DNA of 37,333 nt from Candidatus Aenigmatarchaeota archaeon (lineage in GTDB: Archaea; Aenigmatarchaeota; Aenigmatarchaeia; QMZP01). Position 1 is the first letter of the stretch. Every line of letters starts with the position of its first letter. The notes under the pieces were generated by a model. It did no database searches. It worked only from the letters and a program-made list of their open reading frames with translations, and was not told the origin of the DNA. Location of the stretch: assembly GCA_030615165.1 (NCBI GenBank), contig JAUWZW010000003.1, positions 1 through 37,333 of the forward strand. Reading direction: 5' to 3'. Below, piece by piece: positions 5,034 through 33,845 of this stretch. Position numbers and translations under genes: made by a program.

Positions 5034-5660
5034 TTGATTTTTATGAACCTTCTGAAAATCTATAACAGGCTTCTGAAACATTTCGGCCCGCAGGACTGGT
5101 GGCCAATGCAGCGCGGCTTTAAGCCACCGGAGTGGGAGGTGTGTATAGGTGCTGTGCTCACGCAGAACACGAACTGGGGGAATGTTGAGCTTGCCCTGAA
5201 AAACCTGAAGAAGGCAGACCTTTTATCCAGAAAGGATATTGAAAAAACCAGGAAGAAGAGGCTTGCGGCCCTGATAAGGCCTGCAGGCTATTATAACCAG
5301 AAGGCAAGGAAGCTCAGAATTCTGGCCTCCTTTTCCGGGAAGCCAACAAGAGAGAACCTGCTCGGTTTGTGGGGCCTGGGCCCTGAAACAGTTGATTCAA
5401 TCCTGCTCTATGCGCATGGAGAGCCCTATTTTGTCATAGACGCATACACGCGCAGGGTTTTCTCGAGAATGGGCCTCCAGCTGGATACAAAAACAGATTA
5501 TGAAGAAATCAGGAGCATCTTCGAGGATAATCTCCCCAGGGATGTCAGCCTCTATAAGGAATTTCACGCGCTGATTGTGGAGCTGGCAAAGAGGCACTGC
5601 AGGGCAAGGCCGCTCTGTGAGAACTGCCCCCTGAGTGGGGAGTGCAGGAAAATAATTTAA
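5034..5660 (+). CDS. endonuclease III-related HhH-GPD DNA glycosylase with a 4Fe-4S loop
   Basis: It has a helix-hairpin-helix (LLGLWGLGPETVDSILLYA) and a catalytic Asp region (VIDAYTRRV). The C-terminus has C-x6-C-x2-C-x5-C (CRARPLCENCPLSGEC). Confidence 0.8.
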   Translation: MIFMNLLKIYNRLLKHFGPQDWWPMQRGFKPPEWEVCIGAVLTQNTNWGNVELALKNLKKADLLSRKDIEKTRKKRLAALIRPAGYYNQKARKLRILASFSGKPTRENLLGLWGLGPETVDSILLYAHGEPYFVIDAYTRRVFSRMGLQLDTKTDYEEIRSIFEDNLPRDVSLYKEFHALIVELAKRHCRARPLCENCPLSGECRKII

Positions 5661-5708
5661 ACTGTCAATTGACTTATTATCCCTTTAAGTTGACAATAAA
5701 AAGGGACA

Positions 5709-5738
5709 GGGGAACAGGTTTTGGTAACCCTGTTCCCC
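5709..5738. terminator. perfect 10-bp-stem hairpin (GGGGAACAGG / CCTGTTCCCC) between convergent genes, flanked by A/T runs on both strands
   Basis: It sits directly after the stop of 5034..5660 (+) and after the stop of 5750..6499 (-). It is preceded by the motif TTAAGTTGACAATAAAAAG (5686-5706) that recurs at 26634 and 29124. Confidence 0.6.
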
Positions 5739-5749
5739 AAAATAAATAT

Positions 5750-6499
5750 CTAAGAAATCGCATCCAGGATGAATAAAGCCGCTTTTCTCAGGAGCGCACG
5801 CAATCCCCCGCCGCCCCGAAAACCATAGACCAGTCGGTGCTGACCACGCCGTTTGTAACAGCCTACATTGCCAACGATCTGCTCACATATTTCTCTGTAG
5901 ACATACAGCTCTGGCTGGTAGTCCATTCTAATGGCATAGTCGACTGGCCAGGCATTAGAGTCCAATGACAGTTTGTCATTGGCTGTGGGCTCGATTGTGT
6001 ACCATTCCCAATCACCGGTGAATAAGTCGGTGCACACATCCACCCAGGCATGCCCGTTGCCTTGGAATGCTCCAAGAGGCACCCTTACCATATCGTCCGC
6101 GTATACGTTCAAACCGCTGCCTTGCAATTCATCCAAATATTGGGTTGCAAGCAGCAGTGAACCCAGCAGCCAGGAAACGTCCTCGCAATCCCCTTTGAGC
6201 CTCTTAAGCGTCTCGCATGGGAATGACCAGTATTCAGGTATCCCGTGCTGTTTCCTGTCGGAAACGTATTTGATGGTTCTTACGAAATTGAAGAACACCA
6301 TCAGCGGGTCGTCTCTCCAGCCGTTTTCTTCCATCAGCTTTTGCGCCATGGCTATTACTTCTTTGTTTTCGGGTGTCAGGAACGAATAAACAAAGTAATC
6401 ACCTTCCGGCCTGGCAGGGTATGTAGGGCAGGGTTTCACCACCACCGTATTATCAAGCGAATCGGTCTTTCCTGCGCTTTTAAATTTTAGAGCCGTCAT
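5750..6499 (-). CDS. transglutaminase-like superfamily protein (putative Cys-His-Asp hydrolase)
   Basis: The Cys motif is GDCEDVSWLLGSLL, the His motif is GHAWVDV, and TIEPT lies downstream. This is the typical transglutaminase-core pattern. Confidence 0.6.
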   Translation of the reverse strand: MTALKFKSAGKTDSLDNTVVVKPCPTYPARPEGDYFVYSFLTPENKEVIAMAQKLMEENGWRDDPLMVFFNFVRTIKYVSDRKQHGIPEYWSFPCETLKRLKGDCEDVSWLLGSLLLATQYLDELQGSGLNVYADDMVRVPLGAFQGNGHAWVDVCTDLFTGDWEWYTIEPTANDKLSLDSNAWPVDYAIRMDYQPELYVYREICEQIVGNVGCYKRRGQHRLVYGFRGGGGLRALLRKAALFILDAIS

Positions 6500-15682: not shown

Positions 15683-15727
15683 AGCCATGCAAGAAGTCTT
15701 TGCTGACTTTCGTCCCTGCATGGTCAC
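15683..15727. repeat. hairpin-forming element B (CCATGCA...AAGTC tttgcT GACTT...TGCATGG), paralogous to element A
   Basis: It lies about 165 nt upstream of the HTH-REC gene. The sequence covaries with element A and preserves both stems. Confidence 0.5.
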
Positions 15728-15858
15728 GATTTAACTTCAAAGCCAAGCTGCCAGAACTGAATCTTCTATGGTTCAGTTATGACGCGGAAATCGCTGTTGG
15801 CTGTAATGTATGTATCAAGGGAACATGAATACTACTGCTTCATAGTTAATAGAAAATT

Positions 15859-19261: not shown

Positions 19262-19311
19262 CTGTAAGAATGTAAGATTTGCAGATATTTAAAGCTTTGC
19301 TTTACCTTGAA

Positions 19312-19365
19312 ACGGCACCGGCTACTGGGAAATCAGCGAGGTCAGGGTCAGGCTGGAGAAGTAAG
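19312..19365 (+). pseudogene. remnant 3' gene fragment encoding NGTGYWEISEVRVRLEK*, a diverged copy of the C-terminus of 17393..18529 (NGYWDISEVKVRLEK*)
   Basis: It shows about 85% nucleotide identity over about 50 nt to 18481-18531. An in-frame TGA lies immediately upstream, so only the tail survives. The VapBC module lies between the two copies. Confidence 0.5.
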
Positions 19366-19453
19366 CAGGGTTTTGATAGTCAGTAATACTTAAAAAGCTT
19401 TCCATCAATTATTTATGAGTATAATTCCCACATTTCCCATTCAGGTGAGTTTA

Positions 19454-20377: not shown

Positions 20378-20386
20378 GATGATACT

Positions 20387-21157
20387 ATGAACCCAATAGA
20401 CCCTAATGAAATTCTAGGCAGCATGGATTTTTCTGATTTGGATAATTTAGATGAAGTTTCAGATGGCGGAGTCATAATGATGCCTGAAGGTGTAAAAGTG
20501 GCTGAGCCGATTGTGACAAGAGAGGCTGTATTGAAAAAAGTAAAAAGCCAGACAGTTTTGAGAACTAATCATCTTCTTGGTATGCGTTCATGGAGCTATA
20601 ATGAAAGGGGTGGCTATTTAGCGACTCACTTCATAAAGGAAAACGAGAAAAGTTACTGTCTTCCAGTTCCTTCTGGATACGAATATCTTGAACCCATCCT
20701 AGATTATCACCCCTATTCTGTTCGCCATTTTCGAGGGATGGTGCTTATAAGGGATTTACATAATGGTGATCCTGGAAGTGCAAACATTGATAGTAATCCA
20801 GAGCTGAATGGGTTTTCCGAAATGCTTAGTAGAAGAGGGCAATTCGGCGATTTCCTAAAGGGGCGTGGTGATTATGATCAAGGGCATAATCAACATCCAG
20901 TGGCGTGTGCAATCGATATTCTAGACCAACTTGGAAACTATACGAATAGGATTATAAAAAAAGGTAAAACAATTATACGAAAACCAATGGAAAATCTAAG
21001 TCATGACATATGGTACTTCCCTTTATGGGAAGTTCCTATAAAAATATTACCACCTAAAGAAAAAAAATATAACTGGGGAGTAGGTAAACCAGGCCTTGGT
21101 GCTTTCTATTTTGATGGTGTTTTTGGAGTAATGTTTAAGGCACTAAAGAGATATTAA
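20387..21157 (+). CDS. hypothetical protein, paralog A of an unrecognised family
   Basis: 256 aa. Shared with paralog B: an acidic N-terminus LD.LDEV.DGGVIMMPEGVKVA, then EPILDYHPYSV, NPELNGFS, IIRKP, DIWYFPLWEVP, FYFDGVFG. It is 9 nt downstream of the SPFH gene. Confidence 0.6.
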   Translation: MNPIDPNEILGSMDFSDLDNLDEVSDGGVIMMPEGVKVAEPIVTREAVLKKVKSQTVLRTNHLLGMRSWSYNERGGYLATHFIKENEKSYCLPVPSGYEYLEPILDYHPYSVRHFRGMVLIRDLHNGDPGSANIDSNPELNGFSEMLSRRGQFGDFLKGRGDYDQGHNQHPVACAIDILDQLGNYTNRIIKKGKTIIRKPMENLSHDIWYFPLWEVPIKILPPKEKKYNWGVGKPGLGAFYFDGVFGVMFKALKRY

Positions 21158-21178
21158 ATCTTTGTAAGTGGTGACTAT

Positions 21179-22243
21179 ATGAGACATGATGATATTTTAG
21201 GCGGATTGAACATGGAAAGTTTGGATGATTTAGGTGAAGGTGAATACATAGTGATGCCTGAGGGGGTTAAGGTAGCTCCTTATAAGGTCACCGCGGAAGA
21301 AGCAAGGGCTCTTGCACAAAAAGCTGCTGAATCATACAAAGATTCTGATGTATATTTTCATGTTGATCCGGCTGGTAGTGGTTGGGGAGAAGACTTTTTT
21401 GAAGATGGCCCAAGAATGTCCAAAAGATATGAAAATTTGATAAAGACACTCAAGGATAAGATGCCCGCCTTTTTGGAGATTATTGAATCCAAATACAGAA
21501 ACGAGGGACCGTATACTTTCACTGCTGGTTATCTTGGGATAAAACATGTTGATTTCGAGGCTGGTGAGCCAATTCTCGATTATCGCCCGTTATCTGTTTT
21601 TTTAGAGTCGAATCTTCTTCATGTGGAAGATTTGTATACAGGATATCGATATTATTGCAGGGCGACACTGCATCCTGAATTAAATGGTTACTCTAGCATA
21701 CAACCATCAGTTTCTGGGGATGATGAAAATTCTATTCCTTTTTCTATAAGTATGATAATGAATCATGGAAAACCGCTAAGAAAGATAGAAAAATCAGAAA
21801 AAGTTATAATAAGAGAACCCAGAAGAAAGCCTACACGGGGACCAAAAGGTGAAATTTGGTACTTCCCTCTATGGGAAGTGCCAATGGTATCGCACAGAGA
21901 ATTTTTGACTGAGCGGGGGACATACTTCTATCTAAAACGTGGTATTCTTTCCAATAAGTGCACATCGCACGAACACAAGTGGAGAATCCACGTACCTTTC
22001 ATTACCCGAGGTGCGGTATTTTTTGATGGGTTTTCAGGAAAGAAAATATCAAGTGTGTTAGCAGATTCCTTTTTCAATGCTGAAAATCCTCAAGATAATC
22101 AATTTAAATGCTATGCGATTTTGCTTTCGGATAAGAAAGATTTAATAAAAGTAGGATATGCGTATTTGGATTCCTGGCTTAGAAAATGTAGTTTAACAGA
22201 GAAAGAAATAATGAGTATACCAGAACGTATTGAATTTGGTTAA
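21179..22243 (+). CDS. hypothetical protein, paralog B of the same family (longer, C-terminal extension)
   Basis: 354 aa with LDDLGEGEYIVMPEGVKVA, EPILDYRPLSV, HPELNGYS, IIREP, EIWYFPLWEVP, VFFDGFSG. Confidence 0.6.
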   Translation: MRHDDILGGLNMESLDDLGEGEYIVMPEGVKVAPYKVTAEEARALAQKAAESYKDSDVYFHVDPAGSGWGEDFFEDGPRMSKRYENLIKTLKDKMPAFLEIIESKYRNEGPYTFTAGYLGIKHVDFEAGEPILDYRPLSVFLESNLLHVEDLYTGYRYYCRATLHPELNGYSSIQPSVSGDDENSIPFSISMIMNHGKPLRKIEKSEKVIIREPRRKPTRGPKGEIWYFPLWEVPMVSHREFLTERGTYFYLKRGILSNKCTSHEHKWRIHVPFITRGAVFFDGFSGKKISSVLADSFFNAENPQDNQFKCYAILLSDKKDLIKVGYAYLDSWLRKCSLTEKEIMSIPERIEFG

Positions 22244-23177
22244 TCTAATATTAAGTTCACATCGCTGGGGTTCTGATATTTATTCTGCCCAAGCTAATTA
22301 TTTAACAGGTGCTTTAGTGGCAAAAGACAGAATCCTTGAGAACAAGAACTGCCCCAGATGCTGGAACGGCATTCTTTATTCTACGAATATTGTGAGCAAA
22401 AGGAAGCTTGTCTACTACCAGTGTGCATACTGCGGCAGGATGATAACAAGGGGTGTGTTCAGGAAATTGATGGAGAGGATGGAGAAGATAGGAGCAATCG
22501 TGACATCTCATGAAAAGGCTAAGCTGCACAGGAAAAGGATTAGAAAAGCAAGAAAGGAGAAAAAGCCAGGATTCATCGTTGGTGTTGTAAGGGATGTGAA
22601 AAACAAAAAATCCCTTGGAGGGGTTTATGTTTACGTAAGGGGAATAGGCATTGAGGCATTCACCAATTCCTACGGGCAGTATGCATTAAAACCCATTCCC
22701 CCTTCAGAGAATATCACAGTGGAAACATCCAAGCCCGGATACAGGAGGAAGGGAAGGATTCTGAAGAGGGGGATAAAGAGGGGCGAGGTCAGGGAAATAT
22801 ATTTCGGCATAAGGACGTTAAGGGTCAGCAAGACACCCCCTCCGGAGTTCCCCGAACTCAGACCCATATGGGCAAGCCCTGAGGCAAAGAAGGCGCCCCG
22901 CCCGTCAGGCATCCATGGCTTTATCAGGGACAGCAAAGGCAATCCGCTGCAGGGTGCTATAATAACCATCTTTGCCGGGAGAAAGGAATACATAGTCCAG
23001 ACCGATGCAACTGGTCATTACGAGCTGCTCAATGCCCTGCCACCGGGATATTACCATCTCAAGGCAACAGCAGACGGGTTCACATATGACAGGAAAACAG
23101 TCAGGGTGGATTTCATGTTCCTCTCTGCACAGGACTTCAAACTGTTCGTCATGCCGAGGAGAAGCGCGGGCGGCTGA
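22230..23177 (+). CDS. C4 zinc-ribbon protein with two carboxypeptidase-regulatory-like (Cna-B-type) beta-sandwich domains
   Basis: The zinc ribbon is CPRCWNGILYS...YYQCAYCG. The beta domains are GVVRDVKNKKSLGGVYVYVRGIGIEAFTNSYGQYAL and GFIRDSKGNPLQGAIITIFAG...TDATGHYELLNALPPGYYHLKATADGFTYDRKTV. The start is uncertain, because the track ORF overlaps the upstream gene by 14 nt. Confidence 0.55.
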   Translation: MNLVNLILSSHRWGSDIYSAQANYLTGALVAKDRILENKNCPRCWNGILYSTNIVSKRKLVYYQCAYCGRMITRGVFRKLMERMEKIGAIVTSHEKAKLHRKRIRKARKEKKPGFIVGVVRDVKNKKSLGGVYVYVRGIGIEAFTNSYGQYALKPIPPSENITVETSKPGYRRKGRILKRGIKRGEVREIYFGIRTLRVSKTPPPEFPELRPIWASPEAKKAPRPSGIHGFIRDSKGNPLQGAIITIFAGRKEYIVQTDATGHYELLNALPPGYYHLKATADGFTYDRKTVRVDFMFLSAQDFKLFVMPRRSAGG

Positions 23178-23218: not shown

Positions 23219-26200
23219 GTGAAGGATTTGGTCAAGTGTAAGGATGTCGGGGGTCCAGATTGGTGCGATGAGGATGCGGAATATGTAAGGACATATAGGG
23301 AGAGGGGAGGTACTTACGTTGAGCTGAGATGTCCATCCGGTCATTTAAGTGTAATTCCTGTTTCTGAATACAGAGACAAAGTCAGGGCAGAAGAAGCAGC
23401 AAGAAGGATAACCAATGCGGATATTGCGCACTTAAGAATAGAGATAGAATCCATGGTTTTCCAGAGGTTGCCTGAGCGGCAGATGATAAATGAGGTTGTT
23501 CTTTACCTTGAGTCAACAGGAAGGTATGCAGCTTTGAAGAGGGAGGAACTTGAAAAAACAGCACGCAAGCTGTTGGATTTGGTTAGAAAGAAAATAGAAA
23601 AAGAAAGGCTGGGAGCTGTAAGTAAATACATATGTCCTGATTGCAAGAAGGTTTACCTGAATGAAAAGCCCGGGGCGGATGGCAACCTTCTTTATTACTT
23701 CTGCACAGAGTGCAAGAAAAAATTCTCTCCACGTGATATAAAGAGAAGAAAGGTTTATGGGAAGCCTGGTTGGTTGAAGAGGAGAAAGGCATACAGAGAG
23801 AAGAAAAAGGAGTTGAAAGGCACTGCAATCAAAAAGGAGTTGGAGGAGCTTGAAACCTTGGAAGAGAGAAGGCGAGCAGGTTTATTAACTGCTGATGAGC
23901 ATGAAAGGTTGTTAGAATTAAGGGGGACTGCAGCAGAAAAAAGGGAGGAATTCAAGGGTACACTCTTTGGTGCCAAGAAAGAATATAAAACTGGTGTGAG
24001 TGAGCTAAAGGAAAAGGCCAAAGCAGAGAAATGGACCAGGGTAAAATACAAGGAAGAAAAGAGAAAGCTCAAGGAGAAGTACATTAGAAGCAAAAGGGAA
24101 TATAAAGAGAAAGTGGGGAAAGAGAAAGAGAAGAGAAAGGCGCACATAGGAAAGAGGGTAACCGGTTTTATTGAAGATAAATGGGGCAAGGACGTGATGA
24201 AGGCATTTATCGTGATTCTCTTTGCTGCCCTGGGCTTTGCTATCTCAGGTGCTTTTGGAAGCATTTTATTCCTGTTCGGGTTCCTTTCATTGGCTCTTTA
24301 CTACATTTTCCCGAGCCCTGATGAAGAAACCCCGCCCCGGGAGCTGGCGAGACAACTCAAGGAAAACCCCCTGACATGGAGGATGGTGGGGTCAAGGGCC
24401 TTCCTGAGGAATCCCCACACGGTCTGGGGGTTCTTGAAAACAATCTTTAAACTGTCAACATTCATACTGTTCATTTTCGGTGTCTGGTACAGCCCGATGG
24501 TTCCGTTCAAGAATATAGTTTTGATAATACTGTGCTTTGGGGCATACTTCTCGCTCAAGATGACCTATAACACTCATATGCCGCACCAGTTCATAGAATC
24601 CGTGATAAGGTTTGGTCTGCTTGGGGCGTTCTTCATACCGTGGGTTATATTCTACGGGATTTTCCAGTCAGGTCTTCTTGCCCTGCTTGCAATGGCATTC
24701 TTCATGATTCCGCCCATAGCAGAGGACAAGCAGAATACTGAAACCTTTGCAATGTATGAAATGTTTGATAAATTCATATTTTTTGGTTTCATGCTCGTTG
24801 CGCTCATTGCATCCGGGGTTCTGCCTCTTCCATGGTTTGGTGAAGTTGGATGGAAACTTACAGGAACCCTCCAGTGGACATTCCTCTACTTCTGGGTTGT
24901 TTCCTTTGTTGCAGGATTCTTCTCTCCTGCACAGACAAGACCTGCAATGGGTTTCATAATGCTAGGCGCTGCTACCATAATCTACGGCATAGGGCCTGGG
25001 GCGCAGGAGTTCGGGACAGCTTTGCTTGGTCCCTGGTATCCTGTTATACAGAATCTTTTCAGCTCAATTGCAAAGCCGTTTGCTGAAGTATTCGGCCAGT
25101 TTGCAAACACATTCGGCAGTGCCCTGATGCTGCTTGTAAATCCTGTTGGGTATGCGCAGTCTATAATGAACGGAACGTATGCAAGGGATACCACTACAGG
25201 TTTGCAGGGCGCGTACGGCATTGAGATAGAGAGGTTTGAGGTAATGCCCATATACACAGAGAGCCCTTATGTTGTAAGTGTCATGGTTAAGAACAAGGGG
25301 GCGTTTGAGGCAAGGAATGTAATAGTTGCACTTGTCCCGAGCGTTAATGTACCCAGGGAGGAAAAGAGCTGGGTTTGGGGTGTCAAGGAGGCTGTGCTTA
25401 TTATACCGAAAGCTGCTGTGGCAGTTGGAGGTTGGAATCCTCTTAGTATTGAAGTGCACATGCCGTTTCTGAGGCCTAACATAACCATGACAAAGGAAGG
25501 GCTGGGATTTGTTGAAGAGCCTGATACGGACAGGGGCATAACACAGAAATGCATAGATGACAGGCGGTGTGTATTTGCCATAGGCAACATGACAAAGCTG
25601 CAGACAAGCCAGGCAAACTTCTACTCTGATGGTATAATGTGCCCTGCAGTGGTTAATTATGGCTTGATGACAAAGGAAAAGGCGAAAGTGCTCCCGTTCA
25701 TAGGCATGATACAGTATGACTACAACATAAGCTCGAACCTTGAGGTTGAGGCAATGAGCAAGGAGGAATGGGAAAGGCAGGTGGAGGAAATGGAGCTGCA
25801 GCCAAAGTTCAAGAAGCTTACAACCTTCACAAATGCGCCTGTCATGCTCAATCTGGACACACTGGAGCAGCCCATACTGGAGGGCTCACCATTCCATATA
25901 GCCCTGAACATTGTGTCTGCGCACAAGAAGGGGAGGGTAGTGGGCAATGCTACTGTAAGGTTGGAGATACCAACCAACTTCACGAAGGGGAAGGGAGAAG
26001 AAAACCTGCCTCCCTGCGTGCCGGATAAGATCAAACCCAAAATTATAAAGCAAGATGATACAACAACACTTCTCGAATGGAAAGGTCTCACCGAGCCTTA
26101 TGCCATATTCTGCAGCTTCCCTCCTGTGAAGGTTCCTGAAGGTCCTACAATAACATACATGGTAAGGGCTGATGCTAGTTACACATTCAGCAAGTGGGAC

Positions 26201-26617
26201 ACACTTGATACAAGGATGCAGTTCGGGGGGACAGCATGCTGCAAGAAATCCGAGGACTGTCCGATTCCCGGTCAGATATGCGACACATCAATAAATAAAT
26301 GCGGGGCTGGGGAAATTGATATTAGCGAAAGATTGTCTGAGCTTGAGGCGCGTATGAATGAACTCCAGAATGAAGTGGACCAGATAACAGAGGAGTTTGC
26401 TGATAAGCTTATAGTGGACATAAATGCATATGACCAGCTTCTGGATGAGATGGGCATCCTTAAACAGCAATACTCAGGTGATGCTGAGGTCATATCGGCT
26501 ATAGAGAATGTTGAAACCAGTGTTAATAATGCAATAAAAGTGGCATGTGAAAAATGCAGGAGATGGGGTGTGGATTGTCCATCAGACATCTGCAGTTCTG
26601 TGGGTGTTGATTTATAA
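23219..26617 (+). CDS. giant (1132 aa) polytopic membrane protein: N-terminal zinc ribbons + K/E-rich coiled coil + ~8 TM + large beta-rich domain + Cys-rich segment + C-terminal coiled coil
   Basis: The N-terminus has CKDVGG..WCDED...RCPSGH and YICPDCKK...YYFCTECKK zinc ribbons. A highly charged KEKxK block (aa ~190-300) follows. The hydrophobic core spans aa ~330-620. The long C-terminal soluble region has CARDB-like strands (YVVSVMVKNKGAFEARNVIVALVPSV). The coiled coil is EIDISERLSELEARMNELQNEVDQITEEF. Confidence 0.75.
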   Translation: MKDLVKCKDVGGPDWCDEDAEYVRTYRERGGTYVELRCPSGHLSVIPVSEYRDKVRAEEAARRITNADIAHLRIEIESMVFQRLPERQMINEVVLYLESTGRYAALKREELEKTARKLLDLVRKKIEKERLGAVSKYICPDCKKVYLNEKPGADGNLLYYFCTECKKKFSPRDIKRRKVYGKPGWLKRRKAYREKKKELKGTAIKKELEELETLEERRRAGLLTADEHERLLELRGTAAEKREEFKGTLFGAKKEYKTGVSELKEKAKAEKWTRVKYKEEKRKLKEKYIRSKREYKEKVGKEKEKRKAHIGKRVTGFIEDKWGKDVMKAFIVILFAALGFAISGAFGSILFLFGFLSLALYYIFPSPDEETPPRELARQLKENPLTWRMVGSRAFLRNPHTVWGFLKTIFKLSTFILFIFGVWYSPMVPFKNIVLIILCFGAYFSLKMTYNTHMPHQFIESVIRFGLLGAFFIPWVIFYGIFQSGLLALLAMAFFMIPPIAEDKQNTETFAMYEMFDKFIFFGFMLVALIASGVLPLPWFGEVGWKLTGTLQWTFLYFWVVSFVAGFFSPAQTRPAMGFIMLGAATIIYGIGPGAQEFGTALLGPWYPVIQNLFSSIAKPFAEVFGQFANTFGSALMLLVNPVGYAQSIMNGTYARDTTTGLQGAYGIEIERFEVMPIYTESPYVVSVMVKNKGAFEARNVIVALVPSVNVPREEKSWVWGVKEAVLIIPKAAVAVGGWNPLSIEVHMPFLRPNITMTKEGLGFVEEPDTDRGITQKCIDDRRCVFAIGNMTKLQTSQANFYSDGIMCPAVVNYGLMTKEKAKVLPFIGMIQYDYNISSNLEVEAMSKEEWERQVEEMELQPKFKKLTTFTNAPVMLNLDTLEQPILEGSPFHIALNIVSAHKKGRVVGNATVRLEIPTNFTKGKGEENLPPCVPDKIKPKIIKQDDTTTLLEWKGLTEPYAIFCSFPPVKVPEGPTITYMVRADASYTFSKWDTLDTRMQFGGTACCKKSEDCPIPGQICDTSINKCGAGEIDISERLSELEARMNELQNEVDQITEEFADKLIVDINAYDQLLDEMGILKQQYSGDAEVISAIENVETSVNNAIKVACEKCRRWGVDCPSDICSSVGVDL

Positions 26618-26654
26618 TTTTATTTTAAATCCCGTTAAGTTGACAAATAAAAGC

Positions 26655-26685
26655 GGGGGCTGGTTTTTTGGAACCATACCCCCAC
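26655..26685. terminator. conserved GC hairpin (GGGGGCTGGTT tttt GGAACCATACCCCC) between convergent genes
   Basis: It follows the stop of 23219..26617 (+) and the stop of 26708..27253 (-). It is preceded by GTTAAGTTGACAAATAAAAG. The core CTGGTT..GGAACCATA..CCCC is shared with the copies at 29150 and 30953. Confidence 0.6.
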
Positions 26686-26707
26686 CCTTTGGTGTCTCAA
26701 TTCTCAA

Positions 26708-27253
26708 TCAGTTGTTCACGTCTGGAGCCAGAATCACAGCTTCACTGTTCGGCCCGGGAGGAGCAGGCGGCATTGTTCTGGCGCGTATTGTCGTATTCAG
26801 TTCTCGGATCGATTGGGCAACGCTCTGGTTGGCATTCTTCAAGTCTCTCATGTCACTCTGTAGTTCTCCCACTTGGCCTTTCATGTGGTCGAATCCGCGT
26901 TCAAGCCTTTCGACCCTTCGCTCAAAGGCGGCATCGCCCCTGGTTCTCCGGGTAGTCGGTCTCGGAGGAGCAGGCGGAGCAACAGGTGCTGGCCTGTACC
27001 AATTCCTCATGTCTTTGATTACTTCATCGGCTCCGTCGCGTAAGGTTTTGGCGCGGCCGTGTACAGCAGCAGCAAATGCTTCTGCCTTCTCGGCGTCTAT
27101 GTGCAGTTGATTCAGCACTTGCTCTTCCAGGGGTACCGAGTTTGAGCGCTGGCCGATTCCCGGTAGTGGGTCTGCGATACCTTTGTATATAACGCCCCCA
27201 ATGAAGCATGCCACCAACAACACGGCAATAAATATGGTCTTTTTCCAGTCCAT
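26708..27253 (-). CDS. N-terminally anchored coiled-coil protein with Pro-rich segments and C-terminal tail ...EAVILAPDVNN
   Basis: 181 aa. GGAGGT lies 6 nt upstream of the ATG. The TM helix is TIFIAVLLVACFIGGVIY. The coiled coil is RVERLERGFDHMKGQVGELQSDMRDLKNANQSVAQSIRELN. The last ~12 codons and 3' flank are shared with 29209..30114. Confidence 0.6.
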   Translation of the reverse strand: MDWKKTIFIAVLLVACFIGGVIYKGIADPLPGIGQRSNSVPLEEQVLNQLHIDAEKAEAFAAAVHGRAKTLRDGADEVIKDMRNWYRPAPVAPPAPPRPTTRRTRGDAAFERRVERLERGFDHMKGQVGELQSDMRDLKNANQSVAQSIRELNTTIRARTMPPAPPGPNSEAVILAPDVNN

Positions 27254-28299: not shown

Positions 28300-28338
28300 T
28301 CTCTATTCTCAAGTCTCATTTCTCTATTCTCAAGTCTC
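28300..28338. repeat. tandem direct repeat, 2 x TCTCTATTCTCAAGTCTC with 21-nt period, in the promoter region of 27343..28272
   Basis: Read directly from the sequence. On the minus strand the repeats lie 30-65 nt upstream of the ATG at 28272. This is a candidate operator or promoter element. Confidence 0.6.
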
Positions 28339-28725
28339 TTTCAACGCTTGAAGCTTATTTTGGGCTCTTGTGCACCAATCAGGTGTTAGGAAAAGAGCGC
28401 GGTGGGCCCTCCAGCCTTTTCCAGTTCGCCCGCGTCTCCATATTACATGCCAGAAGACAACACCATTGCCGCAATCCTTCTCTTCAGGAATATCATCTTC
28501 CAGCCACACCTTAGGATTTGTGAGCTCGCAGGTGACATTGCTTTTTCTGCCATCCTTGCGAAATTTTGGATCATCCGGCGGGTCAATCACTGCAAATACT
28601 TTTCCATGCTTTTTCAGTATGTCGGAAAGATACCCAAAATAGACTTCATAACCTTCATCTGGCTGTGGCGCTTTCACATCAAAACTACCTCCTTTCCTGC
28701 TAAAACAAGCAAACAAGAACAACAA
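28330..28725 (-). CDS. hypothetical protein (weakly supported)
   Basis: 131-aa ORF with no recognisable motif. The start is uncertain. The coding call rests only on ORF length and being in the same orientation as its neighbours. Confidence 0.3.
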   Translation of the reverse strand: MLFLFACFSRKGGSFDVKAPQPDEGYEVYFGYLSDILKKHGKVFAVIDPPDDPKFRKDGRKSNVTCELTNPKVWLEDDIPEEKDCGNGVVFWHVIWRRGRTGKGWRAHRALFLTPDWCTRAQNKLQALKET

Positions 28726-29149
28726 AATAAAACCTTTGAGACACGCTTATCAGGAACCAGGAAGGGGTTCTTCCCGGGTTAAAAAGGATTTGATAGGTTC
28801 GGCTATACAAAAACCCTCATCCCAAGACCGAATGCATGCGCCTATAAGTTTTATGCATTGTTAACTTCTCAAGGCACAATATGGTTTGGGATTCGGTTAT
28901 AGCCAAGTTCTTCAATGTTGTCTGCAACAGAATATTTATTCAAATATCCTGAGGACCCGAATGGGTTTCATGTGATGTTGTATTTGTGGAATATGATGAT
29001 ATGATGTATTGAATATGAAAGTGATATTGCTTAATTATACAGGGGAAAGCTTTATAAACCTTTCTGTATTTGTCACTGTAAAGAAGTTAAATATTTGTTA
29101 TATTTGGTTTATTCTTTGACGCCGTTAAGTTGACAGTTACAAAAGGAAA

Positions 29150-29185
29150 GGCGGGGCTGGTTCTTGGGAACCATATAACCCCGCC
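29150..29185. terminator. conserved GC hairpin GGCGGGGCTGGTTC ttgg GAACCATATAACCCCGCC downstream of the PspA-like gene
   Basis: Followed (on the minus strand) by TTTCCTTTTGTAACTGTCAACTTAAC. This is the same module as at 26634-26685. Confidence 0.6.
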
Positions 29186-29208
29186 TCTTGTCGCCATCTT
29201 GTCGTCAA

Positions 29209-30114
29209 TTAGTTGTTCACATCAGGGGACAGTATTACTACTTCAGGCTCGGCACTTTCAGGCTCCGGCTCTGCAGCAGCTGGCTCCTCAGTGCTGGCAG
29301 GCGGCTCGGTGCCGAAGTAAGCGTTGATTGCTTCAGTAGCATTCCTTGGCCCAACCTCGGCTTCCCAGTCAACTATCTCACCCCTGCCTGTTCCAACCGC
29401 AGTTTCACGGGTAACCCTCAGATCAGCTTCAAGCTCCAGATAACGGTTCTGAAGGGCGTTCATTGCCCTTGTGACACCGCTGGCAGAACCAAGGGGGTCG
29501 CCCTTGATAGCCTTAACAAGTTCTGAAACCTGAACCTCTACCTGTTTGGCAGCGATCTTGGCTTCCCATTCCTGGATTTTGCCCGTAAGTTCATTAACCT
29601 TGTTGGTAGCAATAACCAGCTGACTCTTTGCCTCTTCTATCTCTCTGCTAAGCCCCTCAAGAAGGATTTCCTTCTCTTTTATTTCTGTATCCAGGGCTTT
29701 GCAGCGGTCGATCCGGAGGAGGGCATCCTGGTTAACCTGCTCCCAGGTATAGGATTTGTTGTTGACTGTGATGGAATTGCCAGGCTGGCTGTTGGCAAGA
29801 ACCGTCTTGACTTTCTTCAGTATGGCCTCATTGCCTGCCTTGCGCTCTTTGAGCTCTTCAACATCTTCTGCGATAAGATTTGCCTTGATTTCACCCCTGC
29901 TGATATTCACATGATAGTTGCGAATTTTTCCTCGGCATTTCTCAGCTTCATCTTTGGCTATATCCACAAGGGTGTTAAGAGAGGCCTTATCGTCAAGATA
30001 ATCCGCAACACGTTTGCCCCTTGCATTGATGTGAGCACCCAGGTTGGGGACAATTGTCCAACCTAATACAGCAACTATGGCGACAGCCACTACAATAATC
30101 CAAAAAGTTTTCAT
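29209..30114 (-). CDS. N-terminally anchored coiled-coil protein, PspA/IM30/ESCRT-III-like (tentative), with acidic/Pro tail ending ...VVILSPDVNN
   Basis: The probable start is MKTFW (GAGGTG 6 nt upstream). The track ORF start at 30123 appears to be a GTG. The TM is WIIVVAVAIVAVLGWTIV. Long amphipathic helices (LIAEDVEELKERKAGNEAILKK...; ...GSASGVTRAMNALQNRYLELEADLRVTRE) resemble the PspA helix pattern. It is about 65% identical to 31037..31858. Confidence 0.6.
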   Translation of the reverse strand: MKTFWIIVVAVAIVAVLGWTIVPNLGAHINARGKRVADYLDDKASLNTLVDIAKDEAEKCRGKIRNYHVNISRGEIKANLIAEDVEELKERKAGNEAILKKVKTVLANSQPGNSITVNNKSYTWEQVNQDALLRIDRCKALDTEIKEKEILLEGLSREIEEAKSQLVIATNKVNELTGKIQEWEAKIAAKQVEVQVSELVKAIKGDPLGSASGVTRAMNALQNRYLELEADLRVTRETAVGTGRGEIVDWEAEVGPRNATEAINAYFGTEPPASTEEPAAAEPEPESAEPEVVILSPDVNN

Positions 30115-30120
30115 AATACA

Positions 30121-30245
30121 CACCTCTTTTCTTCACAAAAAGGGTTAACATTTTTGCAAGCTTCCTCAATAATCTGTTCTGTCTGTTTGGGGGATTTTCT
30201 GAATAACCTCCTTTCTGCCAGGGACCCATGCCAGGCAGACAGAAA
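30121..30245. repeat. promoter/5'UTR block copy 1, duplicated at 31863..31987 with near identity
   Basis: About 115 nt are almost identical: ...TTCACAAAAAGGGTTAACATTTTTGCAAGCTTCCTCAATAATCTGTTCTGTCTGTTTGGGGGATTTTCTGAATAACCTCCTTTCT..GGGACCCATGCCAGGCAGACAGAAA. It contains an inverted repeat TCTGCC...GGCAGA. Confidence 0.7.
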
Positions 30246-30923: not shown

Positions 30924-30952
30924 ATCTGTTCACCTCTTTCTTAACCAAGAAA

Positions 30953-30988
30953 AGGCAGGGGCTGGTTGGAACCATATAACCCCTGCCT
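30953..30988. terminator. third copy of the conserved hairpin (AGGCAGGGGCTGGTT GGAACCATATAACCCCTGCCT)
   Basis: It lies between the stop of 31037..31858 (-) and the start of 30300..30923 (-). On the minus strand it is followed by TTTTCTTGGTT. Confidence 0.6.
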
Positions 30989-31036
30989 CTTTTAACCAGG
31001 TAATTGCTCCCTACACCAGGGAACACAAGTGCTGGC

Positions 31037-31858
31037 TCATTCGCTTTGCCCTGAGAAGTAGGCGTCAATTGCTTCAGCAGCTTTCCTTGGTGCGATATCG
31101 CCTTCCCAGTCAACGATGTTATCCCTGCCTGTTCCGACCGCGGTTTCACGGGCAACCCTTACATTGGCTTCAAGCTCCAGATAGCGGTCCTGAAGGGCGT
31201 TCATTGCCCTTGTAATCCCGCTGGTAGAACCAAGGGGGTCGCCCTTGATAGCCTTAACAAGTTCTGAAATCTCGACCTCTACCTCTTTGACAGCGATCTT
31301 GATTTCCCATTCCTGGATTTTTCCCGTCAGCTGGTTGGTTTTATCAATAGCAATAACCATCTGCCTCTCCGCATCTTCTATCTCTCTGTTGAGCCCATCA
31401 AGAAGGGTTTCCTTCTCTTTTATTTCGGTATCCAGGGTTTTGCAGCGGTCGATCCGGAGGAGGGCATCCTGGTTAACCTGCTCCCAGGTATAGGATTTGT
31501 TGTTGACTGTGATGGTGTCGCCAGGCTGGTTTTCCTTAAGAGCCTTCCCTGCTTTCTTGAGTATGGCCTCGTTGCCTGCCTTGCGCTCCTTGAGCTCTTC
31601 AACATCTTCTGCGATAAGATTTGCCTTGATTCTGCACCTGCTGATGTTCATCTGGTACTCAGATATCCTTTCAAGGCTTTTCTGGACTTCCTTTTTAGCA
31701 ATGTCAATGAGCTCCTGCAGAGACGCCTTCTTGTCAAGGTACTCCGCAGCACGCTCACCCTTTGCACTGATGTGAGCGCCCAGGTTGGGGATGACTGCAG
31801 AGGCAATGGCACCAAGTATGCAGACAGCCACCACGATAATTAGTATTTTTCTAAACAT
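31037..31858 (-). CDS. PspA/IM30/ESCRT-III-like (tentative) membrane-anchored coiled-coil protein, tandem paralog of 29209..30114
   Basis: The probable start is MFRKILIIVVAV (GAGGTG 4 nt upstream). Many stretches of about 75 nt are identical to the paralog at nucleotide level (e.g. 31441-31516 matches 29700-29775). The C-terminus differs (...AYFSGQSE). Confidence 0.6.
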   Translation of the reverse strand: MFRKILIIVVAVCILGAIASAVIPNLGAHISAKGERAAEYLDKKASLQELIDIAKKEVQKSLERISEYQMNISRCRIKANLIAEDVEELKERKAGNEAILKKAGKALKENQPGDTITVNNKSYTWEQVNQDALLRIDRCKTLDTEIKEKETLLDGLNREIEDAERQMVIAIDKTNQLTGKIQEWEIKIAVKEVEVEISELVKAIKGDPLGSTSGITRAMNALQDRYLELEANVRVARETAVGTGRDNIVDWEGDIAPRKAAEAIDAYFSGQSE

Positions 31859-31862
31859 AATA

Positions 31863-31987
31863 CACCTCTGTTTCTTCACAAAAAGGTTAACATTTTTGCA
31901 AGCTTCCTCAATAATCTGTTCTGTCTGTTTGGGGGATTTTCTGAATAACCTCCTTTCTACCCGGGACCCATGCCAGGCAGACAGAAA
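31863..31987. repeat. promoter/5'UTR block copy 2
   Basis: See 30121..30245. Confidence 0.7.
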
Positions 31988-32771: not shown

Positions 32772-33845
32772 CTAACGCTTCGGTTTTTGCTTGACCTCAA
32801 AACCTTTCCAAACTTGATGGGGAAGTGGGGATTGTTTTTTCTCTGGCCGGGACTTCTTTGGTTCTGACTTCTCTGGCCGGGATTTTTTGCCGCTCTTTTC
32901 TTCATTTTTTTTCAGGATACTCTCAATTCTCTCATATGCTTTACTATCCTTCTTTTGTTCCTTAAGGGCGGCTCTGAGCTCCGGCTCCACCTCGGTGCCT
33001 AAGTCCACCAGTATGAAGGTGGCATGGTCCTGAATAGCACCGGAACCCTTCAAGCTGTCATTAATGATCCTCCTAACTGGTGACCTGTCTGCCGGGTTAG
33101 TCTGGATGAGTGACTTGTCAGCATATAAACTTAATTTCCTTTCTTCAGGATCGCTGTTTTTTGCATAGTAGCTTTCCATAATCACCTTCAGTACAGGGAC
33201 AGCCGCCTTTGCATTGGGGCCTATCTCTCCTAGGGCTTTTATTGCTGCCAGGCGCACATGAATCTCAGAATCACCCACGGCTGTTTTTACAAGCGCAGGA
33301 ACAGCAGGAGCAGATGCAGGGCCTATCTTTCCCAGGGCTTCTGCAGCAGCTAATCGTATATTACCATATCTGTCAGACAGTTTGGTGTTGAGTGTCTTGA
33401 CTGCATCCTTAGCCCTGGATCCCATCTTCCCTATGGCATTGATAACTGCTACCTGCAGCACCTTCGGTTGCGAATCACCAAGGCTTTTAACAAGCGCGCT
33501 TACTGCTTCTTTTGTATCCTCTGCATCCGGACCTATTTCACCAAGTATTTCAGCAGCAGCAATGCGTATATCAGCGCTTTTACTGCCTAGCTGCTTTATC
33601 AGCGGCTTTACAGCAGGCCTGCCTATCTTTACCAGGGATTTTTGAACGTTCTTTTTTATTCCGGTATCCTTGTATTTCTCGCAGAGGAGTTTGACAAGCT
33701 CTTCAGCGACATCTGCTTCTGTTGGTATGTTGGGGTTTGCCTCGGTATTGGCCTTTTCAGGCACATAGCCCATCGCGATGTTACAGCTGTACAGGATCGG
33801 CAGCAGAACTATTAGTATTCTTATTGTCTTGTTCAGGTGTTTCAT
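32772..33845 (-). CDS. secreted/lipo HEAT-repeat (PBS-lyase-type) protein with a K-rich C-terminal tail
   Basis: The signal peptide is MKHLNKTIRILIVLLPILYSCNIAMG. Repeats are IRIAAAEILGEIGPDA, IRLAAAEALGKIGPAS and VRLAAIKALGEIGPNA. The tail is KKSRPEKSEPKKSRPEKKQ. Confidence 0.65.
   Translation of the reverse strand: MKHLNKTIRILIVLLPILYSCNIAMGYVPEKANTEANPNIPTEADVAEELVKLLCEKYKDTGIKKNVQKSLVKIGRPAVKPLIKQLGSKSADIRIAAAEILGEIGPDAEDTKEAVSALVKSLGDSQPKVLQVAVINAIGKMGSRAKDAVKTLNTKLSDRYGNIRLAAAEALGKIGPASAPAVPALVKTAVGDSEIHVRLAAIKALGEIGPNAKAAVPVLKVIMESYYAKNSDPEERKLSLYADKSLIQTNPADRSPVRRIINDSLKGSGAIQDHATFILVDLGTEVEPELRAALKEQKKDSKAYERIESILKKNEEKSGKKSRPEKSEPKKSRPEKKQSPLPHQVWKGFEVKQKPKR

What the first reader, a model, noticed from the sequence alone, without database searches (positions are those of the whole stretch)
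26631..26745. Reused 3'-end module: C-terminal ...IL(S/A)PDVNN tail + conserved hairpin + TTAAGTTGACA shared by two otherwise different genes
The last ~12 codons of 26708..27253 and 29209..30114 and their downstream ~80 nt are about 80% identical (TCAAT(C/T)AGTTGTTCAC(G/A)TC.GG...CTTCA ; GGGGCTGGTT..GGAACCATA(TA)ACCCC ; GTTAAGTTGACA). The rest of the two proteins is unrelated apart from architecture. This implies either a mobile or recombining 3' cassette, or a conserved C-terminal peptide (a possible sorting or partner-binding motif) coupled to a conserved 3'UTR element. Related hairpin copies occur at 30953 and, with the TTAAGTTGACA box, at 5686-5738.
Basis: seen in the sequence. Interest (0 to 1): 0.6.

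Follow-up and report, generated by a model that had tools for sequence, protein, structure and literature searches.

The report
Shared gene tail, terminator and DNA box
Two unrelated membrane-protein genes of an uncultured archaeon end with the same nine amino acids, a similar terminator hairpin and the same 14-base DNA box, but these are three separable conserved features, and the box, which has no known function, also follows terminators of unrelated genes.

Summary
The 3' ends of A (26708..27253, -) and B (29209..30114, -) align over 127 columns at 72% identity (score 70; shuffles 14.8±2.3). The "module", however, splits into three features found apart elsewhere.

1. **Tail.** VIL(A/S)PDVNN is translated and under purifying selection: differences between copies fall almost only on third codon positions. 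It occurs only on membrane proteins of this cluster. It has been lost, or separated from the reading frame, in some A orthologs.

2. **Hairpin.** A G+C-rich hairpin plus T-run looks like an intrinsic terminator. It also follows genes without the tail.

3. **Box.** T-GTCAACTTAA(C/A)GG lies 0-20 nt after the T-run. It is 95-100% conserved across six independent gene contexts and their orthologs, while flanks are 31-46% identical. It occurs about once per 10 kb, also next to a histidyl-tRNA-synthetase-like gene. It marks the junction of a 5-kb insertion/deletion.

B belongs to a wider family with weak PspA/Vipp1 resemblance. A and B share nothing else beyond coiled coil.

Best reading: an old shared 3' segment kept by three separate constraints, not a mobile cassette. 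The functions of the tail and the box are inferred, not shown.

The parts
26708..27253 (-). Gene A: 181-aa protein with N-terminal membrane helix, helical region, Pro-rich linkers, coiled coil and C-terminal tail
   Evidence: ORF and translation. Identical protein P0007 on record, with orthologs P0008 and P0009. No Pfam family.
26708..26737 (-). Tail of A: nine codons VILAPDVNN plus stop TGA
   Evidence: Compared with B there are 6 nucleotide differences, 5 at third codon positions. Compared with the L108 A ortholog there are 3 differences, all synonymous.
26649..26689 (-). Terminator-like hairpin of A: 12-bp G+C-rich outer stem, 1-nt bulge, 5-bp apical stem UGGUU/AACCA; the 3' arm runs into the T-run
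   Evidence: RNAfold structure; dG -24.0 for the 44-nt window.
26632..26645 (-). Box TGTCAACTTAACGG. It directly follows CTTTTATT and lies 14 nt beyond the stop of the convergent gene 23219..26617 (+)
   Evidence: Identical core in three A-context orthologous loci (L001, L107, L108), where flanks are about 40% identical.
29209..30114 (-). Gene B: 301-aa membrane-anchored coiled-coil protein of a wider family with weak PspA/Vipp1 resemblance, ending in an acidic Pro-rich linker and the tail
   Evidence: 108 remote homologs; PspA_IM30 in 10 of 40 members, best E 8.9e-07, below Pfam cut-off; AlphaFold2, pLDDT 80.8; top Foldseek hits Vipp1/PspA, E 3e-3.
29209..29241 (-). Tail of B: VVILSPDVNN plus stop TAA
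   Evidence: The L001 ortholog has the same peptide with 2 synonymous differences.
29148..29187 (-). Terminator-like hairpin of B (GAGGCGGGGU...GGUUCC/GAACC...CCCCGCCUUU), followed by the T-rich CCTTTCCTTTTGTAAC
   Evidence: dG -26.8. Conserved with changes in L001, L105 and L106.
29122..29135 (-). Box TGTCAACTTAACGG after B. There is no convergent gene here. An invariant archaeal-type promoter lies about 75 nt further downstream on the same strand
31037..31858 (-). Gene C: tandem paralog of B (71% identity), ending ...AYFSGQSE* without the tail
   Evidence: (repeat families D1, D4).
30950..30991 (-). Hairpin after C. Same type as B, with a compensatory C-G to A-U change in the stem. No box; the next gene starts about 25 nt later
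   Evidence: dG -25.4; L001 copy.
5709..5738 (-). Hairpin after the unrelated gene 5750..6499: different stem sequence, same apical GGTTACCAAAACC
   Evidence: dG -20.1. Conserved in L118, L119 and L120.
5682..5695 (-). Box variant TGTCAACTTAAAGG after CCCTTTTTAT, 21 nt beyond the stop of the convergent HhH-GPD gene 5034..5660 (+). It is the junction of a 5-kb insertion/deletion relative to L118

Best explanation
The shared 3' end is an old homologous DNA segment. Three independent constraints keep it recognisable, and each also acts elsewhere on its own.

1. **Tail.** The last nine codons encode a short C-terminal peptide, (V/A)-V-I-L-(S/A)-P-D-V-N-N. It hangs on a disordered Pro/Glu/Ala-rich linker at the end of membrane-anchored coiled-coil proteins of one gene cluster. 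I infer that it is a docking or recognition motif for a partner common to these proteins.

2. **Hairpin.** The G+C-rich hairpin plus T-run is the transcription terminator of the unit.

3. **Box.** T-GTCAACTTAA(C/A)GG, immediately after the T-run, is a lineage-wide DNA signal placed at strong unit boundaries: before a convergent gene or before an independent promoter. I infer that it is the binding site of a protein that reinforces termination or insulates neighbouring units, in the manner of a roadblock placed just downstream of a T-rich release site.

**Shown:** sequence similarity, coding constraint on the tail, hairpin conservation with changed stems, box conservation, separability of the three parts.

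**Inferred:** termination itself, what binds the tail, and what the box does.

A and B carry all three because both are the last gene of a transcription unit in the same cluster and both use the tail.
For: **Similarity beyond chance:**

**Tail**
- Differences between copies fall on third codon positions: 5 of 6 for window A against B, 3 of 3 for window A against L108 A, 2 of 2 for window B against L001 B.
- The motif is found at only 4 of 1369 stop-to-stop segments of at least 50 aa in about 190 kb of related loci. All four are membrane proteins of this cluster.
- Similar ends occur in more distant B-family members: LDLIPDSVN, ETVLPNVD, VVSVPASIN, VVELVPID.
- The tail region is predicted disordered.

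**Hairpins**
- All copies are strong.
- Stems differ between contexts but stay paired: GGCGGGG/CCCCGCC, GGCAGGGG/CCCCTGCC, CGGAGG/CCTCCG, GGGGAACAGG/CCTGTTCCCC.
- Each is followed by a T-run downstream of a stop codon.

**Box**
- Identity is 100% in four A-context loci, 90% in three B-context loci and 95% in three D-context loci. It is 95% among six independent contexts, against 31-46% for the ungapped 25-nt flanks among those six contexts.
- It always has the same orientation after hairpin and T-run.
- It is present next to a histidyl-tRNA-synthetase-like gene in another archaeal contig.
- Density is 3 per 37 kb in the window and 4 per 39 kb in the ENA contig.

**Separability:**

**A and B terminators are closer to each other than to other box-bearing terminators**, which fits common descent of the segment.
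Against: - No transcript data, so termination at these sites is an inference. Published 3'-end maps of four archaea found U-tracts without hairpins (PMC8716108, read), so hairpin terminators are not the expected archaeal type.
- The partner of the tail is unknown. The neighbouring AAA ATPase has no recognisable MIT domain, and the membrane topology of A and B is not settled.
- The role of the box rests on position only. The sample is small: six independent contexts, about 190 kb of related sequence, no complete genome.
- In most contexts the box also lies 1-25 nt from the stop of the opposite-strand gene. Which strand 'owns' it is not fully settled.
- With only four A orthologs and no outgroup, tail loss against tail gain in A cannot be polarised firmly.
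Confidence: 0.6

Rival explanations
1. One mobile or recombining cassette. Tail, hairpin and box form a unit that is copied between gene ends, like a miniature inverted-repeat element, an in-frame palindromic element or an integron attC-type site, with the box as the recombination site.
For: - Similarity between A and B is contiguous from the tail through the stop codon (TGATTGAG / TAATTGAC) to the box.
- The sequence over the stop codon is partly complementary to the box, so an outer stem encloses the hairpin in A and B.
- ACTTAAC within the box fits the integron inverse core RYYYAAC (read directly from the sequence).
- The window's gene-D locus equals the left flank of one L118 box joined to the right flank of another. 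The 5 kb between them is missing, so an insertion/deletion joins exactly at the box.
- The tail sits on different proteins in different genomes: A in the window, a 165-aa neighbour in L001.
Against: - The parts occur apart in every combination.
- The left arm is absent in the independent contexts D, L118 position 15867, L109 and L111. So there are no general terminal inverted repeats and no target duplication.
- The polarity of the core-like motifs is opposite to attC.
- No integrase or transposase appears in the window, in L001 or in the 5-kb variable segment.
- Gene order around A and B is conserved in three genomes.
- Copies are 72-78% identical with saturated synonymous sites, so there has been no recent movement.
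Confidence: 0.15
2. An RNA-level 3'UTR element. The box is transcribed and pairs with the stop-codon region, forming a long stem around the hairpin that controls mRNA stability or translation termination of tail-bearing genes.
For: RNAfold predicts pairing of CUGAUUGAG (A) or UUGACG (B) with the box region, enclosing the hairpin. In L107 the stop-codon region TAAGTGAC is also an inverted near-copy of the box.
Against: - The box lies after the T-run and would be transcribed only on read-through.
- The pairing partner is missing in contexts D, L118 position 15867, L109 and L111.
- There is no covariation: the L108 change T to A in the box is not compensated.
- No Rfam family matches.
Confidence: 0.1
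3. Recent gene conversion between the neighbouring genes A and B homogenised their ends. No function need be attached to the tail.
For: The two genes lie 2.5 kb apart on the same strand, and the similarity is contiguous.
Against: - Only 72% identity.
- 5 of 6 differences in the tail are at third codon positions.
- The same tail with further synonymous changes is found in other genomes for both A (L108) and B (L001). The similarity is therefore old and maintained by selection on the peptide.
Confidence: 0.03
4. A generic terminator only. The resemblance of the two ends is what any two terminators of this genome would show, and the peptide match is chance.
For: Hairpin plus T-run follows many genes here, including genes without tail or box.
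Against: - A 9-residue match (8/9) at the extreme C-terminus of two neighbours, repeated in orthologs, with a synonymous-only substitution pattern.
- The box is 95-100% conserved while the flanks are not.
- 3 box matches against 0.09 expected.
Confidence: 0.03

Closest known systems
Bacterial intrinsic (Rho-independent) terminators
   Same: G+C-rich stem-loop directly followed by a T-run, placed 20-110 nt after a stop codon. An A-rich stretch before the stem gives partly bidirectional geometry at convergent genes.
   Different: The host is an archaeon, where mapped terminators are U-tracts without hairpins (PMC8716108). There is a conserved apical GGTT...AACC stem and an invariant 13-14-nt box after the T-run. 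Neither is part of the bacterial model.
Archaeal U-tract terminators assisted by aCPSF1/FttA
   Same: T-runs of 4-8 after the gene. The organism is archaeal: Pelota/eRF1 domains, BRE/TATA-like promoter, and the nearest genome hit is labelled Aenigmatarchaeota.
   Different: The known signal needs neither a hairpin nor a downstream sequence box. Whether aCPSF1 acts here cannot be tested with these tools.
Roadblock terminators of eukaryotic RNA polymerase I (T-rich release element plus Reb1/TTF-I site); the comparison rests on my own knowledge
   Same: Architecture: a T-rich stretch followed within about 10-20 bp by a conserved, oriented protein-binding-sized box at the end of a transcription unit.
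   Different: No binding protein is identified, there is no experimental evidence, and the polymerase and domain of life differ. This is a resemblance of layout only.
REP/BIME-type intergenic repeats of bacteria
   Same: Hairpin-containing repeats in 3' intergenic regions, often between convergent genes, at many copies per genome, with a short conserved motif beside the palindrome.
   Different: In REPs the palindrome itself is the conserved repeat. Here the stems differ between contexts and only the box and the apical 4 bp are constant. No RAYT-type or other transposase was seen.
Integron attC sites (including those reported in Archaea); the comparison rests on my own knowledge
   Same: A structured element directly after the cassette ORF. 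ACTTAAC / GTTAAGT fit the RYYYAAC / GTTRRRY core consensus. One insertion/deletion is joined at the box.
   Different: The polarity of the core-like motif is reversed relative to attC. There is no paired R''/R' in independent contexts, no IntI, and gene order is conserved rather than a variable array.
C-terminal short linear motifs on flexible linkers, such as the MIM motifs of ESCRT-III proteins that bind the Vps4 MIT domain
   Same: Helical-hairpin core with weak PspA/Vipp1 (ESCRT-III superfamily) resemblance, then a disordered acidic/Pro-rich linker, then a conserved short motif at the very C-terminus. An AAA ATPase with a weak Vps4_C match (E 1.5e-05) is encoded in the same cluster.
   Different: The tail matches neither the MIM1 nor the MIM2 consensus. 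The ATPase N-terminus shows no MIT domain and is closest to Cdc48 D2. B has an N-terminal membrane anchor, and the PspA assignment is below family thresholds.

Membership tests
Intrinsic (hairpin + U-tract) terminator | Stable G+C-rich stem-loop | tested here: met
   dG -20 to -29 kcal/mol for 44-nt windows, z -3.9 to -4.7. Stems differ in sequence between contexts but remain paired.
Intrinsic (hairpin + U-tract) terminator | Run of T directly 3' of the stem, downstream of a stop codon on the same strand | tested here: met
   CTTTTATT (A), CTTTCCTTTTG (B), CCTTTTCTT (C), CCCTTTTTAT (D). The same layout is seen in all related loci.
Intrinsic (hairpin + U-tract) terminator | Transcripts end at the U-tract | not testable with these tools
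   No transcript 3'-end data for this organism.
Integron attC site | R'' (RYYYAAC) at the 5' end and R' (GTTRRRY) at the 3' end, pairing with each other | tested here: not met
   RYYYAAC (ACTTAAC) lies at the 3' end in gene orientation. A partly complementary left arm exists only in the A and B contexts, not in D, L118 position 15867, L109 or L111.
Integron attC site | Integron integrase (tyrosine recombinase) nearby and a variable cassette array | tested here: not met
   No recombinase domain in the Pfam scans of the window, L001 and L118 genes. Gene order around A and B is conserved.
MITE / in-frame palindromic element | Terminal inverted repeats and target-site duplication bounding near-identical dispersed copies | tested here: not met
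   No consistent left end across independent contexts. Copies are 72-78% identical at best.
REP-type repeat | The palindrome itself is conserved among many copies, with an associated RAYT transposase | tested here: inconclusive
   Stems vary between contexts, and only the box and the apical GGTT/AACC are constant. No transposase was seen, but no complete genome was available.
ESCRT-III MIM / Vps4 MIT interaction | MIT domain at the N-terminus of the AAA ATPase | tested here: not met
   Pfam scan of residues 1-125 at E up to 1 gives no MIT. PDB matches cover only the AAA core and are best to Cdc48/p97 D2.
ESCRT-III MIM / Vps4 MIT interaction | C-terminal motif fitting the MIM1 or MIM2 consensus | tested here: not met
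   VVILSPDVNN has neither the (D/E)xxLxxRLxxL(K/R) pattern nor the phi-P-x-phi-P pattern. The tail sequence is; the consensus is from my own knowledge.
PspA/IM30/Vipp1 (ESCRT-III superfamily), for protein B | Significant match to the family profile | tested here: inconclusive
   PF04012 at E 0.0075 (16.3 bits, cut-off 33.9) for B. 10 of 40 family members match, best E 8.9e-07. The profile against PDB gives Vipp1/PspA at E 0.02-0.07.
PspA/IM30/Vipp1 (ESCRT-III superfamily), for protein B | Long helical-hairpin fold | tested here: inconclusive
   AlphaFold2 model: helices 46-107 and 124-204 form a hairpin with a beta tip, pLDDT 80.8. Top Foldseek PDB hits are Vipp1/PspA, but E is only 3e-3 to 3e-2 and TM 0.25-0.45; other coiled coils follow closely.
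Archaeosortase-type C-terminal sorting signal (PGF-CTERM and relatives) | Motif followed by a hydrophobic helix and a basic tail | tested here: not met
   The protein ends 2-3 polar residues after P-D (VNN*), with no C-terminal hydrophobic segment.
Roadblock-type terminator (T-rich element plus factor-binding box) | Oriented conserved box within about 20 bp downstream of the T-rich release site | tested here: met
   The box starts 0-20 nt after the T-run, always in the same orientation, in 13 instances from 6 independent contexts.
Roadblock-type terminator (T-rich element plus factor-binding box) | A DNA-binding protein occupies the box and stops the polymerase | not testable with these tools
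   Needs binding and transcription assays.

The most novel reading that the evidence does not exclude
The 13-14-nt box T-GTCAACTTAA(C/A)GG is a new kind of archaeal boundary element. A dedicated DNA-binding factor would sit on it just downstream of the hairpin/U-tract. That factor would enforce termination and insulate convergent or tandem units, in a layout like Reb1/TTF-I termination of polymerase I. Because the same short sequence ends many units, it would also serve as a preferred junction for recombination that shuffles whole units and gene 3' ends. That would explain the 5-kb box-to-box insertion/deletion and the tail appearing on different proteins of the cluster.
Probability: 0.2. Interest if true: 0.75.

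Novelty: new variant of a known kind. Interest (0 to 1): 0.5.

Why it matters
Archaeal termination is currently described as a U-tract plus the cleavage factor aCPSF1, with no hairpin and no further sequence signal (PMC8716108).

A lineage in which terminators carry conserved hairpins, followed by an invariant oriented 13-14-nt box at unit boundaries, would point to an extra, sequence-specific layer of termination or insulation. The evidence in hand does not allow a reading of the box as a recombination-prone boundary mark to be excluded.

Separately, the tail marks a small set of fast-evolving membrane-anchored proteins, at least one of them weakly PspA-like, as clients of one unknown partner. 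These proteins sit in a cluster with an ABC/FtsX-type transporter, an AAA ATPase and an M50B-type protease. The tail gives a handle for finding what this uncharacterised system does. Both claims can be tested with simple experiments.

Tried and rejected
**Searches that led nowhere**
- Exact look-ups of window proteins: searches found nothing. The window's own proteins appear only through homology searches.
- Rfam at gathering thresholds found nothing. No tRNA genes.
- Literature search for the box sequence returned only unrelated primers.
- Cluster look-up gave no names or taxonomy.

**Collection scans**
- The genome collection scan with the B-family alignment returned one true relative, cut by its contig end: L103, labelled Candidatus Aenigmatarchaeota. 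It also returned one distant bacterial hit. It gave the likely phylum but no 3' end.
- The viral scan of the 14-mer gave 101 hits, which I first read as chance singletons. A second scan showed that 33 of them are one homologous site in closely related viral contigs: GGTTGACAGTAAACCGCTTTTGAGCGGGGTTGTCAACTTAACGG, 52% G+C, with no hairpin or T-run. This is one coincidence multiplied by redundancy and is unrelated to the window.
- The metagenome scan had to be made very specific to avoid chance hits. It therefore under-samples the element: 9 hits, of which L109 and L111/L116 are convincing.

**Method limits**
- MAFFT plus RNAalifold on the ten hairpins recovered only 8 pairs, because indels misalign the stems. 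I relied on single-sequence folds instead.

**Hypotheses rejected**
- Sigma-70 promoter (the box contains TTGACA on the plus strand): there is no -10 element at the right spacing, and the organism is archaeal.
- Integron attC, MITE and MIM/MIT: see the membership tests.
- Archaeosortase signal: no C-terminal helix.
- Recent gene conversion: the synonymous divergence argues against it.
- A and B as recognisable paralogs: only an ambiguous coiled-coil hhalign hit.
Full report
**1. The observation**

The window is a whole 37,333-bp contig of 45% G+C.

On the minus strand, gene A (26708..27253, 181 aa) ends SEAVILAPDVNN*. Gene B (29209..30114, 301 aa) ends PEVVILSPDVNN*.

Their 3' ends align from TGAAG, three codons before the tail, to AACGG at the end of the box.
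- The alignment has 127 columns and 91 identities.
- The score is 70, against 14.8±2.3 for shuffles (MAFFT view).
- The 12-mer GTTAAGTTGACA occurs three times in the window against 0.09 expected.

Each site has a strong hairpin followed by a T-run.

BLASTP of A against B finds only the tail. Profile comparison adds an ambiguous 40-column coiled-coil match.

**2. The organism and the neighbourhood**

The contig looks archaeal.
- It encodes a Pelota/eRF1-type protein and DUF7504.
- It has BRE/TATA-like promoters.
- The only species-representative genome that holds a B relative is labelled Candidatus Aenigmatarchaeota. The window's own taxon was not established.

A and B lie at the end of a minus-strand cluster containing:
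- an FtsX-like permease (paired with an ABC ATPase in L001);
- an AAA ATPase closest to Cdc48 D2, with a weak Vps4_C match (E 1.5e-05);
- a HEAT-repeat protein;
- an M50B-type peptidase;
- the tandem paralogs C and B;
- several small membrane proteins.

**3. Related loci**

A syntenic 297-kb ENA contig (L001 and L118), Logan contigs (L107, L119, L120) and JGI contigs (L105, L106, L108) carry orthologs of A, B or gene D, 5750..6499. Two further metagenome contigs (L109, L111/L116) carry hairpin plus box in unrelated contexts.

**4. The three parts occur apart**

| Combination | Where seen |
|---|---|
| Tail + B-type hairpin + box | window A and B, L001 B, L108 A (L105 B has variant tail VVELVPID and box TGTAAACTTAAAGG) |
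| Tail variant (VAVLSPDE*) + unrelated hairpin, no box | L001 165-aa gene |
| No tail, hairpin + box | window gene D and its orthologs, L001 A ortholog, L107 A ortholog, L118 position 15867, L109, L111/L116 |
| No tail, B-type hairpin, no box | C in the window and in L001 |

The "module" is therefore a co-occurrence, not a unit.

**5. The tail**

Between copies, differences fall on third codon positions:
- 5 of 6 for window A against B, the sixth giving Ala/Ser;
- 3 of 3 for window A against L108 A;
- 2 of 2 for window B against L001 B.

Under random placement, 5 or more of 6 at third positions has a probability of about 0.02 (my calculation). This is purifying selection on a translated peptide. 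It also excludes recent gene conversion.

The motif was found at the end of only 4 of 1369 stop-to-stop segments of at least 50 aa in the related loci. All four are membrane proteins of this cluster.

In the A family the tail has been lost or split off in several lineages.
- The L001 ortholog ends ...TMPTPHRH* without it.
- L107 has an in-frame TAA followed by the remnant VTVFPE*.
- L108 keeps an intact VILAPDVNN* in another frame after a 1-nt deletion in CCTCC(C)GGG. This may be an assembly error.

The tail is thus probably ancestral in A and is being lost in some lineages.

Evidence on the B family:
- It has 108 remote homologs.
- Ten of 40 members give sub-threshold PspA_IM30 matches.
- The profile touches Vipp1/PspA in the PDB at E of about 0.02.
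- An AlphaFold2 model (pLDDT 80.8) shows a membrane helix, a long helical hairpin and a disordered C-terminal region.
- The best Foldseek hits are Vipp1/PspA at E 3e-3.

This is a lead, not membership.

Several of the nearer homologs end in similar peptides: LDLIPDSVN, ETVLPNVD, VVSVPASIN.

I infer a docking or recognition motif on a flexible linker. Its partner is unknown. The ESCRT-III MIM/MIT analogy fails on the ATPase side.

**6. The hairpin**

All copies are stable. Stems differ between contexts yet stay paired.
- One example is a C-G to A-U exchange between B and C.
- Stems are entirely different in D, the L001 A ortholog, L118 position 15867 and L111.
- The apical GGTT...AACC pairs recur.

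Each hairpin is followed by a T-run downstream of a stop codon.

This is the layout of a bacterial intrinsic terminator. Published 3'-end maps of four archaea found U-tracts without hairpins (PMC8716108), so the type is unusual for an archaeon. Function here is inferred.

About seven such hairpins lie at gene ends in the window, and three carry the box.

**7. The box**

The consensus is T-GTCAACTTAA(C/A)GG.

Identity of the 13-nt core against the ungapped 25-nt flanks:

| Comparison | Box | Upstream flank | Downstream flank |
|---|---|---|---|
| Four A-context loci | 100% | 43% | 39% |
| Three B-context loci | 90% | 43% | 37% |
| Three D-context loci | 95% | 92% | 40% |
| Six independent contexts | 95% | 46% | 31% |

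The high upstream value in the D context reflects the closely conserved hairpin region in those three loci.

The box always follows hairpin and T-run in the same orientation, 0-20 nt after the T-run. Density is about one per 10 kb.

Where it occurs:
- At junctions with a convergent gene, 1-25 nt from that gene's stop. In L118 it overlaps the stop.
- Before an independent promoter, as in the B context.
- It is missing where the next co-directional gene follows at once, after C and after the AAA gene.

One structural difference has its junction at the box. The window's D locus equals the left flank of L118 box 10817 joined to the right flank of L118 box 15867. The intervening 5 kb is missing, apart from a GerE-type gene that has a 66%-identical homolog elsewhere in the window.

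No recombinase was found.

I infer a protein-binding boundary signal that reinforces termination. A role as a recombination junction is a minority reading.

**8. Why A and B look alike end to end**

The A-context and B-context terminators resemble each other more than they resemble other box-bearing terminators. Similarity also continues across the stop codon.

The simplest account is common descent of the last 130 nt or so, through an old duplication or transfer within the cluster. The peptide, the hairpin and the box were then preserved by separate constraints. The direction and mechanism of that event cannot be resolved with four A orthologs.

**9. Verdict**

The feature is real and only partly explained.
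- The conserved peptide is supported.
- The cassette idea survives only weakly.
- The most interesting item is the box, which I could not match to any described element.

Noticed in passing
window 28730-29085 (minus strand); L001 12700-13040; L105 2930-3360; L107 2150-2320: About 75 nt after B's box lies an invariant archaeal-type promoter (CAGTGACAAATACAGAAAGGTTTATAAAGCTTTCCCCTGTATAATTAA; TATA at 29051-29058). It is followed by about 330 nt of conserved non-coding sequence (GGCGCATGCATGCGGTCTTGGGATGAGGG..., hairpin AACCCGGGAAGAACCCCTTCCTGGTT) before gene 28330..28725. This could be a structured leader or a small RNA. No Rfam family matches.
   Followed up: partly
window 5682-5695 compared with L118 10817 and 15867: A 5-kb segment lies between two direct copies of the box in L118 and is absent at this place in the window. 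It holds genes of 174, 101 (GerE), 218, 358, 328 and 101 aa. The junction falls at the box. L119 and L120 have the L118 arrangement.
   Followed up: partly
window 13788-13950 and 15680-15859 (minus strand); L118 3480-3740: Two diverged copies of a ~230-nt leader, with a TATA-like ATATAAA and a hairpin/T-run (CCATGCGGGAACGCAAGTCAGGGACTTGC...), flank the segment with the 96-aa, GerE and response-regulator genes. The ENA contig has a single copy and no such segment there.
   Followed up: partly
L108 470-540; L107 4425-4455: In two A orthologs the tail-coding sequence is cut off from the reading frame. In L108 an intact VILAPDVNN* lies in another frame after a 1-nt deletion in a C-run. In L107 an in-frame TAA precedes the remnant VTVFPE*. 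The cause could be assembly error, decay or recoding.
   Followed up: partly
window 29209-30245 and 31037-31987: B and C are tandem paralogs. They are 84% identical over 300 nt of coding sequence, and their 5' regions are 92% identical (30120-30245 / 31862-31987), which is higher than the coding parts. C lacks the linker, tail and box.
   Followed up: partly
window 11446-13717 (minus strand): Four small paralogous membrane-protein genes (149-174 aa) lie in a row, with repeated 5' ends and ribosome-binding regions (repeat families D2, D3, D5, D7). No Pfam family matches.
   Followed up: no
window 32772-33845: A HEAT-repeat gene is present between the AAA ATPase and M50B peptidase genes in the window but absent at that place in the syntenic ENA contig.
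   Followed up: no
window 18570-23177: A block with a PIN/MazE toxin-antitoxin pair, an SPFH/Band-7 protein, two unknown proteins and a CarboxypepD_reg-domain protein lies between genes that are adjacent in L001. It looks like a lineage-specific insertion.
   Followed up: no
IMG/VR loci L004, L009, L017 and others (33 contigs); also L110, L117: One conserved site in a group of closely related viral contigs (52% G+C) reads GGTTGACAGTAAACCGCTTTTGAGCGGGGTTGTCAACTTAACGG. It contains the 14-mer box exactly but has no hairpin or T-run. I judged it unrelated.
   Followed up: partly
L118 10830-10846, L120 6631-6647, L109 2951-2968: The sequence just right of the box is similar in three loci (TAYCTACTCAYGATGG). 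It may be the start of the neighbouring unit's upstream region.
   Followed up: no
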